From: a plasmid
Length of the DNA: 64,000 bases
Reading direction: 5' to 3' (one strand)
Assembly: GCF_056712565.1 (NCBI RefSeq)
Contig: NZ_JBWXXM010000002.1
The position numbers are program-made. This document shows, in pieces, positions 1-9,000 of the stretch; the first letter of the stretch is position 1; the number at the start of each line of letters is the position of its first letter.

Positions 1-3000
1 AAGTACCGCGATCATTACTTTAGCAGAGCTATTGTTACTCAGAATCATAAAGGCGGTACAGGGAAAAGCACTACATCTGTAGCTTTAGCAGTAGCAGCTG
101 CTTTAGATCTACAACTGAATGCACGTGTATTAATGATCGAATGGGACCCACAAGGTTCGATTGGAAGCAGCATGATTCAAAGTGTCTCAGAAGATGATGT
201 CTTCCTTACAGCAATTGATGCAATCCTTGGAATTTATGAAGAAAATTCTGAGTATAAAAAATATTTAGATTCAGGATTCTCTGAAGAAGAAATCATCACT
301 AATATGCCTTTTTCAACGCATCTGCCAAACTTGGACGTGATAACGGCATTTCCGACAGATGCTCGTTTTAAAGATAAATACTGGCAATGTTCTAGAGAAG
401 AACGAACGTCTTTGTTACTACGTTTCAAGGAAGTTATCTTACCGGTACTGAAGCAGAACTATGATTTGATTATTATAGACACTCCACCTGAAGATTCACC
501 TTTGATCTGGGCTGCTGACGAAGCGGCCGATGGGATTCTTGTCGCAGTGTCACCACGTGAATATGATTACGCCTCTACTACAGACTTCATGCTTACAATA
601 AGTGAAAGGTTTAAACAATCACCAAGTAAGGGCGATAATTTAAAATGGTTCAAAGTTCTTGCTGTCAATGTTGATGACAAAAGTCCATATGAAAGAATAG
701 TTTTGGATAAATTAATCAGAACTGTTCAGGACCTTTTGATGTCCGCTAACATAAAAAATTCTGAAGCATTTAAGGCAGCTGCTTCCAAAGGGCGTACAGT
801 GCTTGATATCAAAAAATCAGAGGAACTTTGTTCCGCAAAGCAACTTGATGTCGCAGAAGAATCTGTATTACAGGTATATCAACAATTTATAAATGAAATA
901 AAAAGTTTTTCAGCTAAGCAAGGAGTTAACGCATGAGCGATGAGCAACATATCGGGAATGATAAATCTCGATATTTAAACGCACCAAAGCGGACAGAAGT
1001 CGGTCACCGTTCAGGTCTTGCGGGTTTGAAAACAGCACCTCGCATAAAAAAGTTATTCACTCTTCATAAGGGCCGAAGACTTGAAGCGGAACATGTGATT
1101 GTTCCAGCCCAGAGAGTGGAGAAGGAGACCTTAGTCCATCCAGCAAACCCACGAAATCAAGAAGCCCTTACAGATTATTCTGTTAGAGATATTCTTAAGC
1201 AGATTGAAGAAAGAGGGGTCGATACCGAAGGGATCGCTGTAAAAAGAGATGGGGTTTATTTATTAATAGAAGGAAGTCGCAGACGTTTCTGCTGTATAAA
1301 GGCAGAAAAGGATCTCCCCCTGTGGGTACTACCGGATGAACTAACCGAAGATGATATAAATTCAATTATATCCGCAGCACAAACATCTCGAAAATTTTCA
1401 TATAGAGAAGTTGGGTTTCAATTTATCAAGAAAATGGAAGAAAAGGGATTTTCTACTAATGAAGAACTCGCAGCATATCTTGGGATTAGTCATGTATCGG
1501 TAGCCAAAAGAATCCAGGCGGCACGTATTGACGAAACATTGATCTCTTTATTCCCGGATTATGAAGGAATACCGAACTCCTATTATAGTCGCTTGTCTCG
1601 TTTACAGAAATATGTGCAAAAAAATCTATTTCCTTTAGATGAAGTAATAGATAATGTTAAAGAGGAAACAAAAGATTTAGACATTGGAGATCTCCAAGTT
1701 GCCCAAAAAGTTGTAATGGAGAAAATCACACAATCTGTGGAAAGTGTTTGTGAAAAATCTTATTCCACAAAATGGGAAACAAGTGATCTTATTACTTTTG
1801 ATAACAAAGATAAGTATGCAAGAATCAGTAAAAACAATACTGGAAGAAAAATTCGCATTGAATTCAATAGGATAAGTGCGGGTTTTATTAAGGAGCTAGA
1901 GGAGTTCATAAAAGAAAAATTAAAAGTATCAGAATAAATATTGAACTGCATCTTTATGATGCAGTTCATATGATTTATATTTTTAATTTCTTGTTATATT
2001 AATATGGGGTGTGCGCAGGTTCAGACATATAAGGTCTTAGTTCTATATGAACAGAAGCGCCATTCCCATCATTTACTACGTTTAAAGGTGCTTTGCCCGG
2101 CAATGACATAGTTGCAACGTCAGGTCCAGAAACAGCAAAATTATTTTCTGCTGAAGGCATTACTGTAAAAATCTTTATAGCAACATTTTCATGTCTAAAT
2201 AAAGAAATCCCAAAAGTAGAACCAGCTTCGGTATTGCTCACGTCCACAACCACAGGGGTTTTTCCTAGATATTCATTAGTTAGTATGTTTTTTACTAATG
2301 CCCCTTCCGGGACAGTATAGATACGGTATGGATATGCTAAAACTGAGTGACAAAAACATAATAAAATAACAATTAATGTTTTTTTCATAGATTATCCTCA
2401 TTCAAAAATAAAAGATATAACTCTTGAAAATCGTGGTTATTAATTAGGTCCGCTTTTCCGGGAAAATCGTAACTAACAGAAAATAAAAGAGAAAGAGAAT
2501 CTTTTCCTTTTGCTTTGGGAGAGATTCTGCTAAAAGCACGGTTAATAAACATAAGTTGATCTTCATTGTTGAAGCAAAGTCCAAGCATTCCAACCGTAGG
2601 AACTACGAATGTGCTTACGCTGCCTGGGGGCAAAAGTTGCTTACTACGGGCATTGTAAGCACAACGACTACCACCTAGCGTTAGGCCTGAAAGCTCAATA
2701 AAACTTCTGGTTCCATTCTTGGCGACAAGCCAAACATCAGTTCCTGAACTTTCGACACGTAAAGTAACTTTTCCGTCAGTAAAGGCCTCACTTTTATTGT
2801 ATAGAATAGGGTCAAAACCAACTGTCGGGAGTTCTTCGATTTTACTTTCTACTGACTGACAACCAGTCAGTAATGCAAACAATAAAAGTGTGATAACTTT
2901 AATCATCCCGCTTCCTTAGATTGTTTTTGGCGCTGGTTATAAAAGATAATGATTCACCGGGGTAGAGAATTGTTTCTTTCGTCCAATAACGATAACCACC

Positions 3001-6000: not shown

Positions 6001-9000
6001 AAACGGCTAAAGTTATCATGGTAGACAATCCGCAGTTCGCATTATCTTTGGCAATTGCTGATACTATTTATTCAGAATAATGAGCTAGAACATGGCTAAA
6101 AACCCTATCTCAAATAAGGCAGATAACGACCGGATTCAGATCCGGTCTTTCTGGATATCCGAAAGAAAAGCACCCTATGTTTATAGTTTCTTGAAAAAAA
6201 CAGAACTTTCTCATAGGGGTGACCAACTGGATTTAATTAGGTCGGCTATTAGTACCGGGTTGGTATTGAATAATTTATTTCCTGACTTGGCAAATTTTAT
6301 AAATGGTTTAAACGAAAGATTAACACTTGCAGATCTTAATAGGTTTCTGAATGATGGAAATACTATAGATACTGAACCTAAGCCTCCTATTAATGTATTG
6401 CTAGAGAATGTCTTAGATCAAAAGTTTAAGGAGTATTTAACACCTCTACAATTAGATAATTCAAAGCAGGATTCTGTTTCTGTAAAAGAAACCTTCCTTG
6501 TACAAAAGGAACATGCCTGCTTTGGTGTGAAGATTGAAAATGAGGGAAGCGATACCTCTATACCATCTGAAAGCCCACTTTCTTCAGATGCATCCAAAAT
6601 TTCAAAAGAAAAGTCCATTTCCGCTGTGGTGCCAGTGCTAGAAAAAGTATCGGATGAAAATCAAACCGCCTCCATAAGCATAAAATCTAAAGCTAAGGCA
6701 AACAAGCGACTGGCAACTTTGGCAAGATAGGTGAGAGACAGTACAATCGACTTCTGAGTTCCAACTTGTCTTACCAGGAAAGCCAGCATACTTGCTGGCC
6801 TTTTTTTTGTTATAATAATTTCAGGCTTCACCTGGGTATGTAAAATTACTGTTAATGAAACGGTATTTTAGGTTAATTTGGGTGCTGTTACAGGAAGTGC
6901 GGATTTTTCCTAAATTTGTAAAAAACCTAAGAATTATCTTAATAAATCTGGTACTTAATTATTATTTTACTTATAAAGTCTCTGTGCTTTAATGGTTATG
7001 TAAGGATTTTTTGATACCCTTATACCCGATGGACCTAAGGTCACTGACAACGATGTTCATGTAGAATCTTCGTTTCTGTAATCCCTTTTGTTCTTGTCCC
7101 AAATGTTTGATTATTATAATAAAGGCTGATCGAATGCTATCTCGCAACTCACTAATACATGGTTTACGCCGAGACCAGTTAATCGGAGTTCTGACTATTT
7201 CAGAGTTTCCGGTAGTTATGGTAGAAAGCCACTTCATTCAGTCTGAGGTTATGGGAATAAAACCCGTAATTTTTAATATTGATGAGCTTCTTGTTTCTAT
7301 ATCCCCAATTTCCTCTCTTAAGTTCGATTGGGAGTGGGCCCCAGTTGATACAATACTCATTGAAGTTATCATTCCACCTGTAGAGTCAGACCTTGTAAGT
7401 GCAGAAAATGACTTCCTCCGTGATTCTGGTATCGGCCATATCCAGTGCGAGCCTGGCGGAGCATCAATACGACGTACAGTTACCTTCGTTGGTGGAATAA
7501 CCGCTGATAACTTACTGTATCAGTTGAGGCTTATGTGCGTAAGTGCGTTAAAACTTTTAGGAGAGGAACTGGGGGATGAAGTCTAAGATTAGATATGTTT
7601 TATCTGGTTTTGTTGTGATATGTGCATTTGCTGGAGTTTATAAAATCCTAAACAATGTTCCGGTTAAACCTGACCTTTTGGACTTCACTGGAAACACATT
7701 TAAAAAGACATCACTCTTCCTGCCATGTGATAAAAGCTCGCCTTCTTTAAACATTAAAATTGCTGATAACGAGAAAATCGTGATCAACGGCATCGCTTCA
7801 AAAGTAACTTTTGTTGAAAAGGCTGACCCCGTCAAAAGCCCTGGTTTTTGTGATGATCTTGATCTAAACAATTCTCGCCTTGTACATACGGCATCTTACA
7901 GCATGGTGATTTCTGAAACCAAAACAGGATATACACTCTCAAATTTCAAGCATCTTGCCGATGATGAATCATTAGGTGGTATGTGGTTTTATCAAAAGTG
8001 ACTTTTTATATGGCAACTTCAGACTTCTCTCTTAAAAACCATAATGTAAAAGCTTTTGGTCAGGATGCAGCACTTGTCATTGAGATGAACAATGAAGATG
8101 TTAGCTCATCAAAACCTTCACCTTTTTCAAATGAGATTGATAATTATTATCTTACATTGCACGTCGCTCCGAGGAACGCCAAAAAAGATTATGACTGGGG
8201 CTCAAACCGTTCTGTACTTCTAAAATTGTCGACGAATGAAGTTATGCAGATGGCATCTGTATTTCTTAGAATCATGCATACTTTAAAAATTGATAAGAGG
8301 AAAACCTCACATCATGGCCACGTCGTATACAAAAATATAAGCGTTACCCCAAACGAGAGGGGCGGTTTGTTGTTATCAGCAGGGATAGTTCCAGTCGATA
8401 AAGACGGCTTAAAACCCTTCATGCACATGGTCCCCGTCTCACAAATGGACTGCGTTAAAATTGGCCTCTACATACTTGGATATCTTGCTCAAAAAACGCC
8501 TTGGGTAAGCTCCGAGTCTATAATTACCGCGCTTCGCTTATCTGAAGCCAAGAATTCAAAATAGCGTATTAACATACGGAATACATGGAAAAATACAGGT
8601 TTTTTTAAATGTTATACGAACGGATATTTCTGTTTTTCATCGTAAAGTGAGTTTAATTTTGCTCAGAAAAACAGGTATTCGTCATGAGAAAATCAGGTTT
8701 AGGTTTAGCCCTGTTGTTTTCTTTAATTGCTCCGATTAAAGCGGTCTATGCCGAAGCGATTATGATTTCAGGAAAGCTACAGGCTGATTTGCCAGCCGTA
8801 TCCTTTGACCCGGGGCCGGGCGACTTTGTTGCATACGTTAATTCTAACACTATCACTGCCTCAGGTGCAGGCACAGCCTGTAATGTAACGGTTGATGATC
8901 GAGCGACTTCCTCTGTTGATAACCTCGTTTGTTTTTTTGAGTGGTTACCCAATACCTTGGGATTTACTTCTAACGGTTTCACTCTTTCAGGCGTTCCCAA

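What the first reader, a model, noticed from the sequence alone, without database searches (positions are those of the whole stretch)
1..6730. Two different partition systems flanking an accessory operon
A Walker-type parAB pair and an actin-type parM/parR-like pair occur within 7 kb, matching the double-partitioning arrangement reported for IncHI plasmids, but here they are separated by the exported-protein operon. The AT-rich region 4680..5042 upstream of parM is a candidate centromere although no clean iterons were seen.
Basis: partly seen in the sequence, partly recalled or inferred. Interest (0 to 1): 0.35.

Follow-up and report, generated by a model that had tools for sequence, protein, structure and literature searches.

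The report
Known IncHI plasmid double partition locus
This stretch is the standard backbone of IncHI2 resistance plasmids, carrying the two already-described plasmid-segregation systems (ParAB and ParMR) with the same four genes between them as in the reference plasmid R27, so it is ordinary and not a new arrangement.

Summary
parA is cut by the window start (1-936). parB is 933-1937. Four opposite-strand genes run 4679-1999. parM is 5043-6080 and a parR-like gene is 6092-6730.

The 7 kb is 100% identical to hundreds of IncHI2 plasmids. The IncHI1 prototype R27 has exactly the same gene order, four-gene operon included. So the "separation by an operon" is the canonical IncHI layout, not a difference.

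- **ParA/ParB:** P1-like type Ia proteins.
- **ParM:** a clear R1 ParM homologue.
- **ParR-like ORF:** fails Pfam thresholds, but a broadened profile reaches classical ParR at 93% hhalign probability.

The proposed centromere (4680-5042) holds a conserved parM promoter-like element and a weak dyad. It has no repeat family above shuffle expectation in three lineages, so the parC assignment rests on analogy only.

The likely Par1 centromere lies outside the window. It is an array of ATTTAACCCCCTTAATCGCCA cores upstream of parA. The same array accompanies a parAB homologue in an unrelated plasmid.

Verdict: real, already known, low interest.

The parts
1..936 (+). parA (Par1 ATPase), C-terminal 311 of 417 codons. 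The gene start lies 318 nt upstream of the window. Deviant Walker A KGGTGKST is at 46-69.
   Evidence: AAA_31 1.5e-20, CbiA, MipZ; full CDS in pD90-1; PDB 7NPD ParA2 4e-37; P1/P7 ParA 3EZ2/3EZ9 about 1e-12.
933..1937 (+). parB (Par1 centromere-binding protein). It overlaps the parA stop by 4 nt. It has an N-terminal ParB/Srx-type region with GSRRR, and a C-terminal P1-ParB-type HTH plus dimer domain.
   Evidence: PF08775 3.8e-11; PRK13698 6.7e-13, TIGR00180 1.9e-12, both below curated cut-offs; P1 ParB 142-333, PDB 1ZX4, 3.6e-16; 28% identity to P1 ParB over 84%.
1942..1968 (.). Perfect 11-bp-stem hairpin between the convergent parB and the 129-aa gene. It is a candidate bidirectional terminator.
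   Evidence: I3, 100% complementary; terminator-like on both strands.
1999..2388 (-). 129-aa protein with an N-terminal signal peptide (MKKTLIVILLCFCHSVLA). Last gene of the four-gene operon. No family assigned.
   Evidence: (only a sub-threshold PEGA hit). Conserved in R27, IncHI1B, L009-L013.
2385..2906 (-). 173-aa predicted lipoprotein (lipobox LTGC at residues 13-16). No family assigned.
   Evidence: The lipobox is read directly from the translation.
2899..3735 (-). 278-aa protein with an N-terminal signal peptide. No family assigned.
3732..4679 (-). 315-aa metallophosphoesterase of the NinI/PrpA-like Ser/Thr phosphatase type. First gene of the four-gene operon, divergent from parM.
   Evidence: Metallophos 4.4e-05, above cut-off; PRK09968 3.5e-05, far below cut-off; phrog_246 NinI-like phosphatase 1.4e-07.
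4680..5042 (.). Divergent control region between the operon and parM. It holds conserved blocks but no iteron array.
4914..4951 (.). Block conserved in all seven lineages (TTAAAAnnGAAGGATnCTnnnnTAACAnnnAnTTACGT), about 20-60 bp upstream of the parM -35 element. Function unknown; candidate regulator site.
   Evidence: invariant columns.
4973..5001 (+). Promoter-like element of parM: TTGATA (4973-4978), 17 nt, TATAAA (4996-5001). Invariant or near-invariant across seven lineages.
   Evidence: It was not listed by the consensus scan because that scan requires T at the sixth position of the -10 hexamer.
4977..5026 (.). Two 16-bp pseudo-palindromic sites, TAATAGGTCACCATTA (4977-4992) and TAATATGGTCCTATTA (5011-5026), bracketing the -10. 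Weak candidate ParR operator / minimal parC.
   Evidence: I5, 75% complementary; 8/10 in the IncHI2 group, weaker in the IncHI1 group. Not above chance as a repeat family.
5043..6080 (+). parM, actin-fold ATPase of Par2. The DDGS, DLGGTTLD and VGGGS nucleotide-binding motifs are present.
   Evidence: StbA_N 1.1e-66; ParM C-domain 1.7e-60; R1 ParM PDB 1MWK 2.7e-43, with alignment; 80% identity to IncHI1 ParM, about 39% to ParM of smaller plasmids.
6092..6730 (+). parR-like adaptor gene, 11 nt after parM. It has a conserved N-terminal domain of about 90 aa (strand-helix-helix order), a variable linker, and a conserved basic C-terminal tail (K-A-N-x-x-L-A-x-L-A-R/K).
   Evidence: family and architecture; PF10784 sub-threshold hits; hhalign 67% rising to 93%; only 17 relatives in 1.84 billion representatives.
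6782..6799 (+). Terminator-like hairpin GCCAGCATACTTGCTGGC followed by T8, ending the parMR unit.
   Evidence: (I7).

Best explanation
Window 1-6800 is the partition region embedded in transfer region Tra2 of an IncHI2 plasmid. It contains the two published IncHI segregation modules.

Par1 (parA-parB) is a type Ia, P1-like ParABS system.
- ParB has a P1-type HTH and dimer domain. It is inferred to bind an array of ATTTAACCCCCTTAATCGCCA cores that lies upstream of parA, outside the window (about 0.8-3.7 kb before base 1).
- The long Walker-type ParA is inferred to move the ParB-DNA complexes over the nucleoid.

Par2 (parM-parR) is a type II system.
- ParR is a divergent ParR/StbB-type protein. 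It is inferred to bind DNA near the parM promoter and to capture ParM filaments through its conserved C-terminal tail.
- Those filaments would then push plasmid copies apart.

The four genes between the modules (a NinI/PrpA-like phosphoesterase plus three exported proteins) are a conserved part of this backbone. They are transcribed divergently from parM. Their function is unknown.

What is shown here: the sequence identity, the homologies, the synteny, and the association of the repeat array with parAB.

What is inferred: the DNA-binding sites and the mechanisms.

What comes from the literature on R27: that Par1 is the major and Par2 the minor stability determinant.
For: - Identity: 100% over 7 kb to many IncHI2 plasmids; 1111 of 1130 matching records carry the whole block. 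Typing is IncHI2A, and the flanks are trhC/TraC and htdA/rsp.
- Synteny: the same gene order is found in R27, IncHI1B and other relatives.
- Literature: parAB and parMR within Tra2 are described as IncHI2 core genes. ParABS is reported as the major and ParMRC as the minor system. parAB and parMR are reported as supporting partitioning in IncHI2. parA and parB are reported as constitutive in R27.
- Proteins.
- Par1 array: 11, 25 and 10 cores in IncHI2, R27 and IncHI1B, against 0.09 expected by chance in IncHI2. Seven cores sit at 56-bp spacing directly upstream of a 71%-identical parAB in a plasmid with no Tra2 or parMR next to parAB. The core ends in AATCGCCA, the same eight bases as the 3' end of the P1 small parS read from the annotated P1 record, including the exact P1 BoxB TCGCCA.
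- A natural plasmid lacking the parM 3' end and parR persists. That fits Par2 being the minor, dispensable module.
Against: - No iteron-type parC could be found for Par2.
- ParR does not reach Pfam's gathering score for PF10784 in any family member. Its exhaustive profile search did not reach classical ParR proteins.
- Both structure models of ParR were low confidence (pLDDT 49 and 41).
- The primary experimental paper on R27 (Lawley & Taylor 2003, PMC154067) was not available. I could not check where its authors mapped the centromeres.
- The BoxA-like part of the Par1 core is not conserved in the Citrobacter plasmid (ACTTAAC), so the parallel with P1 parS is only partial.
- No binding or stability assay is possible with these tools.
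Confidence: 0.9

Rival explanations
1. One reading: 4680-5042 is a classical iteron-type parC centromere, like R1 parC with its ten 11-bp repeats.
For: - In characterised type II systems, parC lies upstream of parM and overlaps its promoter (established knowledge of R1, pB171 and pSK41).
- The region is non-coding and AT-rich, and it contains the conserved parM promoter-like element.
Against: - No direct or inverted repeat family exceeds shuffle expectation in IncHI2, R27 or IncHI1B. The same test finds the Par1 arrays at 0 of 30 shuffles.
- The repeat finder returns only two-copy, low-identity families.
- Only one weak dyad brackets the -10, and it is poorly conserved in IncHI1.
Confidence: 0.25
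2. Par2 plus the divergently transcribed four-gene operon form one conserved unit. Its main role would be linked to conjugation (for example, positioning the plasmid or the transfer apparatus) and not to vegetative partition.
For: - The operon and parMR stay together in every relative, including a Photorhabdus contig where parAB is replaced by IS elements.
- The locus is embedded in Tra2.
- R1 ParM/ParR have been reported to enhance conjugative transfer (PMC4949242, title and abstract).
- SXT/R391 parMRC-like loci are co-regulated with transfer (PMC4489591).
Against: - R27 Par2 is reported as a stability determinant, the minor one.
- In evolved IncHI2 plasmids, parAB and parMR were not down-regulated with the tra genes.
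- There is no functional evidence of any kind for the four genes.
Confidence: 0.1
3. The four-gene operon is an accessory cargo insertion that split an originally contiguous double par locus.
For: Its products have no family assignment except the phosphoesterase, and it is transcribed on the opposite strand.
Against: - It is present at the same place in IncHI2, IncHI1 (R27), IncHI1B, three metagenomic or short-read-assembly (JGI, Logan) relatives and Photorhabdus.
- Its divergence parallels that of the par genes.
- There are no flanking repeats or mobile-element genes.
- GC content is similar to the neighbours.
Confidence: 0.03

Closest known systems
Par1/Par2 double-partitioning modules of IncHI1 plasmid R27 (Lawley & Taylor 2003) and the IncHI2 prototype R478 backbone (Gilmour et al. 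2004)
   Same: - Same genes in the same order and orientation, including the four intervening genes, and the same position between trhC and htdA/rsp in Tra2.
- ParM is 80% identical to IncHI1 ParM.
- The window is 98.5-100% identical to IncHI2 plasmids.
   Different: Nothing of substance. Relative to IncHI1, the DNA is about 71% identical and the Par1 repeat unit is about 249 bp instead of 52-54 bp.
P1 prophage ParA-ParB-parS (type Ia partition)
   Same: - Long ParA with an N-terminal extension.
- ParB with the P1-type HTH and dimer domain (PDB 1ZX4, 3.6e-16).
- The repeat core shares the hexamer TCGCCA (P1 BoxB) and a BoxA-like ATTTAAC.
   Different: - ParB is only 28% identical.
- The ParA match to P1/P7 ParA is weak (about 1e-12). 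The best solved relative is V. cholerae ParA2.
- The putative centromere is a multi-copy array upstream of parA, instead of a single IHF-bent site downstream of parB.
- The BoxA-like heptamer is not conserved in the Citrobacter homologue.
R1 ParM-ParR-parC (type II partition)
   Same: - ParM is homologous over its whole length with intact nucleotide-binding motifs.
- The adaptor gene lies immediately downstream.
- The adaptor is related to PF10784 ParR by profile-profile comparison.
- A promoter-like element lies directly upstream of parM.
   Different: - ParR is 212 aa, against about 117-135 aa for classical ParR. It has a long variable linker and falls below Pfam thresholds.
- No iteron array is detectable.
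- ParM carries about 20 extra N-terminal residues.

Membership tests
IncHI plasmid Tra2 double-partition backbone | Near-identity to typed IncHI plasmids | tested here: met
   100% identity to IncHI2A-typed plasmids. 682 records are at >=99% and 446 at 95-99%.
IncHI plasmid Tra2 double-partition backbone | Gene order trhC - repeats - parA - parB - four opposite-strand genes - parM - parR - htdA - rsp | tested here: met
   IncHI2; R27; IncHI1B.
Type Ia ParABS (P1/F-like) | Deviant Walker A ATPase with an N-terminal extension of about 100 aa | tested here: met
   KGGTGKST at window 46-69. The full protein is 417 aa. It aligns to ParA2 and to P1/P7 ParA from about residue 63. The N-terminal 106 residues lie outside the window.
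Type Ia ParABS (P1/F-like) | ParB with an HTH plus a P1-type C-terminal dimer/DNA-binding domain | tested here: met
   PF08775 3.8e-11, above cut-off. PDB 1ZX4/2NTZ about 4e-16 over residues 150-330.
Type Ia ParABS (P1/F-like) | Cis-acting centromere made of ParB-binding repeats adjacent to the operon | tested here: inconclusive
   An array of conserved 21-bp cores lies upstream of parA in four lineages, and in an unrelated plasmid carrying a parAB homologue. It lies outside the window, and binding was not testable. None of these cores occurs in the window.
Type Ia ParABS (P1/F-like) | Stabilises an unstable replicon | not testable with these tools
   Reported for R27 Par1 as the major determinant, by papers citing Lawley & Taylor 2003. 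The primary paper is not held.
Type II ParMRC (R1-like) | Actin-fold ATPase ParM | tested here: met
   PF06406 1.1e-66 and PF21523 1.7e-60. R1 ParM 1MWK 2.7e-43, with DDGS, DLGGTTLD and GGGS aligned.
Type II ParMRC (R1-like) | ParR adaptor of the PF10784 ribbon-helix-helix family encoded directly downstream of parM | tested here: inconclusive
   - Position is met: an 11-nt gap after parM.
- The window protein has no Pfam hit, and no family member reaches the gathering score. The best scores are 20.6 bits against a cut-off of 25 (P0026, P0030), and 9 of 13 members hit at E >= 0.066.
- hhalign against bona fide ParR gives 93% probability and E 3.5e-7, but over 43 columns only.
- The exhaustive HMM search did not reach ParR.
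- AF2 models are low confidence.
Type II ParMRC (R1-like) | Conserved C-terminal ParM-binding tail on ParR | tested here: inconclusive
   A conserved basic tail ending L-A-x-L-A-R/K is present in all family members despite a variable linker. Its interaction with ParM is not testable here.
Type II ParMRC (R1-like) | parC: multiple iterated ParR-binding repeats upstream of parM overlapping the promoter | tested here: not met
   No repeat family is above shuffle expectation upstream of parM or downstream of parR in three lineages, and the positive controls were detected. Only a weak dyad is found, at 4977-4992/5011-5026.

The most novel reading that the evidence does not exclude
IncHI Par2 may work without an iteron-type centromere. 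ParR might use a single dyad at the parM promoter, or an unrecognised site. Par2 may also be functionally tied to the co-conserved, divergently transcribed phosphoesterase/exported-protein operon, with a role in conjugation-linked plasmid positioning rather than ordinary partition.
Probability: 0.1. Interest if true: 0.5.

Novelty: already known. Interest (0 to 1): 0.1.

Why it matters
IncHI2 plasmids are major carriers of mcr, ESBL and other resistance genes, and their stable inheritance depends on these modules. The locus itself has been described since 2003-2004 and is annotated in over a thousand sequenced plasmids.

The only open points are modest ones:
- where the Par2 centromere is;
- what the four conserved intervening genes do;
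- whether the upstream core array with a P1 BoxB-like hexamer is the Par1 centromere. If it is, it would be a specific incompatibility and curing target.

Tried and rejected
1. I searched for iterons in 4680-5042, 6731-7133 and 1938-1998 using repeat finder. I also ran a k-mer family test with shuffles in three lineages (the first version timed out). Nothing was above chance.
2. I tested an inverted repeat around the parM -10 as a covarying operator. It holds moderately in the IncHI2 group and is weak in IncHI1. It is not claimed as established.
3. ParR sequence searches against PDB, as a single sequence and as a profile, gave only chance-level hits. NCBIfam and PHROGs gave nothing.
4. AF2 models of ParR, as a monomer and as a linker-fused tandem N-domain dimer, both had low confidence (pLDDT 49 and 41). 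No fold search was run, because it would have been meaningless.
5. An exhaustive profile search with the ParR N-domain found 17 proteins and did not bridge to classical ParR.
6. I tried to read Lawley & Taylor 2003 and the R27 genome paper. Neither is held.
7. A literature search for the P1 BoxB sequence was unhelpful. I replaced it by reading the annotated P1 genome record.
8. I rejected the 'accessory insertion' reading of the four-gene operon, because it is conserved in every lineage examined.
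Full report
**What is in the sequence**

- An ORF runs off the left edge of the window and ends at 936.
- It overlaps a 334-codon ORF (933-1937).
- Four minus-strand ORFs have overlapping start and stop codons (4679-3732, 3735-2899, 2906-2385, 2388-1999).
- A 363-bp non-coding gap follows.
- Then come a 345-codon ORF (5043-6080) and, 11 nt later, a 212-codon ORF (6092-6730).

Pfam assigns the first ORF to the ParA/MinD P-loop group (AAA_31, 1.5e-20). It assigns the second to the P1-type ParB family (PF08775, 3.8e-11). The 345-aa protein goes to ParM (StbA_N 1.1e-66; ParM C-domain 1.7e-60). The 315-aa protein goes to Metallophos. The other three operon products and the 212-aa protein have no family.

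Read directly from the translations, the three small operon products start with signal peptides, and one of them has an LTGC lipobox. So the label 'exported-protein operon' is fair for three of the four genes.

**Where it comes from**

The first 7 kb are 100% identical to a long list of large Salmonella and E. coli plasmids. Of 1130 matching PLSDB records, 1111 carry the whole block.

One of them, pD90-1, is typed IncHI2A. There the block sits between a TraC-family (trhC) gene and htdA and rsp, which places it inside transfer region Tra2. In that record parA is 417 codons, so the window lacks its first 106 codons.

**Is the arrangement unusual?**

No. The IncHI1 prototype R27 has the same order and orientation. 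It has parA, parB, then four opposite-strand genes of 130/173/279/323 aa that include the metallophosphoesterase. Next come parM, a 225-aa gene, htdA, two further annotated plasmid-transfer genes, and rsp.

The same holds for several other relatives:
- an IncHI1B plasmid;
- a Klebsiella IncHI1A plasmid;
- three metagenomic or short-read-assembly relatives at intermediate divergence;
- a Photorhabdus tasmaniensis contig, which keeps the operon, parM, the parR-like gene and the htd genes, although IS elements occupy the parAB position.

The intervening operon is therefore backbone.

The literature available here describes parAB and parM-parR within tra2 as core IncHI2 determinants (PMC5034289). 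It calls ParABS the major and ParMRC the minor system of PTU-HI2/R27 (PMC12317039; PMC4489591). It notes that parAB and parMR are inserted in the transfer clusters (PMC9599605). In R27, parA is R0020 and parB is R0019. Both are highly expressed at both temperatures and are independent of HtdA (PMC7366339).

**Par1**

The full ParA best matches V. cholerae ParA2 (PDB 7NPD, 4e-37). It also matches P1/P7 ParA from about residue 63 onward. Its Walker A, KGGTGKST, is at window 46-69.

ParB residues 150-330 match the solved P1 ParB DNA-binding fragment (1ZX4/2NTZ, about 4e-16). tblastn finds P1 ParB at 28% identity over 84% of the protein. This is a type Ia, P1-like pair.

The 61 bp after parB hold only a perfect 11-bp-stem hairpin (1942-1968). 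It reads as a terminator on both strands. There is no room for a centromere there.

Upstream of parA, outside the window, there is a gene-free gap of 2.4-3.8 kb filled with tandem repeats:
- in IncHI2, period about 249 bp with 10.5 copies;
- in R27, period 52-54 bp with about 22 plus 6 copies.

Within these otherwise divergent units, one 21-bp core is conserved: ATTTAACCCCCTTAATCGCCA. Allowing 2 mismatches over its first 15 bases, I count 11 copies in IncHI2, 25 in R27 and 10 in IncHI1B. About 0.09 would be expected by chance in the IncHI2 locus. Exact 21-mers also occur in the JGI metagenome relative (L010) and at the very start of the two short-read-assembly contigs L012 and L013. No copy lies in the 64-kb window; the only hit is a 2-mismatch match at chance level.

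The core also travels with parAB. A Citrobacter plasmid that shares only parAB (71% DNA identity) has no parMR, no four-gene operon and no transfer genes next to parAB. It carries seven ACTTAACCCCCTTAATCGCCA cores at 56-bp spacing directly upstream of its parA. That makes the core the best candidate for the Par1 centromere.

From the annotated P1 genome record I read P1 BoxA as ATTTCAC/ATTTCAA, BoxB as TCGCCA, and the small parS as ATTTCAAGGTGAAATCGCCA. The organisation of P1 parS is described in PMC10999674. The IncHI core shares the terminal AATCGCCA, including the exact BoxB, and begins with a BoxA-like heptamer. That heptamer is ACTTAAC in the Citrobacter plasmid, so the parallel is suggestive only.

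R27 also has a 30-nt-arm palindrome just upstream of parA. That is the kind of operator type Ia ParA proteins use. I did not pursue it.

**Par2: ParM**

ParM is a clear homologue of R1 ParM (PDB 1MWK, 2.7e-43). The phosphate-binding and adenosine motifs are aligned: DDGS, DLGGTTLD and GGGS. It is 80% identical to IncHI1 ParM and about 39% identical to the ParM proteins of smaller plasmids.

**Par2: the ParR-like protein**

The 212-aa protein is harder to place.
- As a single sequence it hits nothing in Pfam, NCBIfam, PHROGs or PDB.
- Its family is very narrow. A search of 5.8 billion proteins found 23 hits. An exhaustive profile search of 1.84 billion representatives found 17.
- The alignment shows a conserved N-terminal domain of about 90 aa, a variable low-complexity linker, and a conserved basic C-terminal tail ending L-A-x-L-A-R/K. 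That is the general layout of type II adaptors. This statement about adaptor layout rests on my own knowledge of R1 and pB171 ParR, not on a tool result.
- Nine of 13 members give sub-threshold hits to PF10784, the R1 ParR/StbB family. The two most divergent members reach E about 4e-4 at 20.6 bits, against a cut-off of 25.
- Profile-profile comparison against four bona fide PF10784 proteins (each E about 1e-27) gave 67-69% probability with the narrow profile. It gave 93% (E 3.5e-7) once the divergent members were added. The aligned part is the second helix and the segment after it, and it is collinear with the predicted strand-helix-helix order.
- AF2 models were low confidence both as a monomer (pLDDT 49) and as a linker-fused tandem dimer (pLDDT 41). 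I ran no fold search.

I conclude that this is a divergent ParR-type adaptor. Strict membership of PF10784 is not demonstrated.

**The proposed centromere (4680-5042)**

Alignment of this region from seven lineages shows two things.
- A conserved promoter-like element: TTGATA at 4973-4978, then 17 nt, then TATAAA at 4996-5001. It is invariant or nearly so. The consensus scan missed it because that scan requires T at the last -10 position.
- A conserved block at 4914-4951 of unknown role.

Two 16-bp pseudo-palindromic sites (4977-4992 and 5011-5026) bracket the -10. They are only 75% complementary. They are kept in the IncHI2 group but are weak in IncHI1.

A k-mer family test with shuffle controls found no repeat family above expectation upstream of parM or downstream of parR, in IncHI2, R27 or IncHI1B. 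The same test picked out the Par1 arrays in every setting, with 0 of 30 shuffles reaching them.

So the region is the parM control region and, by analogy, the most likely place for ParR to bind. The sequence gives no positive evidence for an iteron-type parC.

**Natural variants**

In R478-like IncHI2 plasmids, an IS903B sits in the parR-htdA spacer and disrupts nothing.

One 267-kb IncHI2 plasmid has an ISKpn26-associated deletion that truncates parM and removes the parR-like gene. That is compatible with Par2 being the dispensable, minor module.

**Verdict**

However, it describes a published and heavily sequenced backbone feature of IncHI plasmids. The supposed peculiarity (the operon between the modules) is canonical. 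The centromere suggestion is unsupported by sequence.

Small residual questions remain: the Par2 centromere, the function of the four conserved genes, and the identity of the upstream BoxB-containing array as the Par1 centromere.

Interest is low, and novelty is 'already known'.

Noticed in passing
L001 2274-5209 (pD90-1; equals about 0.8-3.7 kb upstream of window base 1); L002 25602-27847 (R27); L004 about 4869-5373; L017 8098-8454: There is a large tandem array upstream of parA with a conserved 21-bp core, ATTTAACCCCCTTAATCGCCA. The core ends in the exact P1 BoxB hexamer TCGCCA. The unit length differs between lineages: about 249 bp in IncHI2, 52-54 bp in IncHI1, and 56 bp in a Citrobacter plasmid that shares only parAB. 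It is probably the Par1 centromere.
   Followed up: yes
L009 1-12000 (Photorhabdus tasmaniensis JASNMP010000008.1): An IncHI-like element keeps the four-gene operon, parM, the parR-like gene and the htd/rsp genes. Transposase and group II intron genes sit where parAB would be. So the operon and parMR stay linked without Par1.
   Followed up: partly
L016 5343-7128 (pS182-CTXM55-267k, NZ_CP065072.1): This is a natural Par2-defective IncHI2 plasmid. parM is truncated to 705 nt and the parR-like gene is absent, next to an ISKpn26 copy.
   Followed up: partly
L015 7087-8055 (pEh65_2); corresponds to window about 6790-7100: R478-like IncHI2 plasmids (98.5% identity group, many from Enterobacter hormaechei) carry IS903B in the parR-htdA spacer without disrupting any gene.
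   Followed up: partly
window 4914-4951: The block TTAAAAnnGAAGGATnCTnnnnTAACAnnnAnTTACGT is invariant across seven lineages that are otherwise about 30% diverged in this intergenic region. No function is assigned. It could be a regulator site for parM or for the divergent operon.
   Followed up: partly
L002 18771-18809 (R27): A 16-bp unit (TGCAAAACCATCATCA on the record strand) is repeated 2.4 times exactly at the parM stop / parR start junction of R27. It is absent from IncHI2, where the gap is 11 nt.
   Followed up: no
L002 25371-25431 (R27): A palindrome with 30-nt arms (77% complementary) lies immediately upstream of R27 parA. It resembles a type Ia ParA operator. No equally clear palindrome was found at the equivalent IncHI2 position (L001 5204-5700).
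   Followed up: partly
window 6722-7000: This spacer segment matches a Citrobacter freundii plasmid (NZ_CP038659.1, 246719-246996) at 95.7% identity, with no annotated feature there. That record did not match the par genes.
   Followed up: no
window 7134-12988: Downstream are htdA (7134-7586), two small genes, and the 1434-aa RSP Ig-like conjugation protein gene (8684-12988). This confirms the Tra2 context.
   Followed up: no
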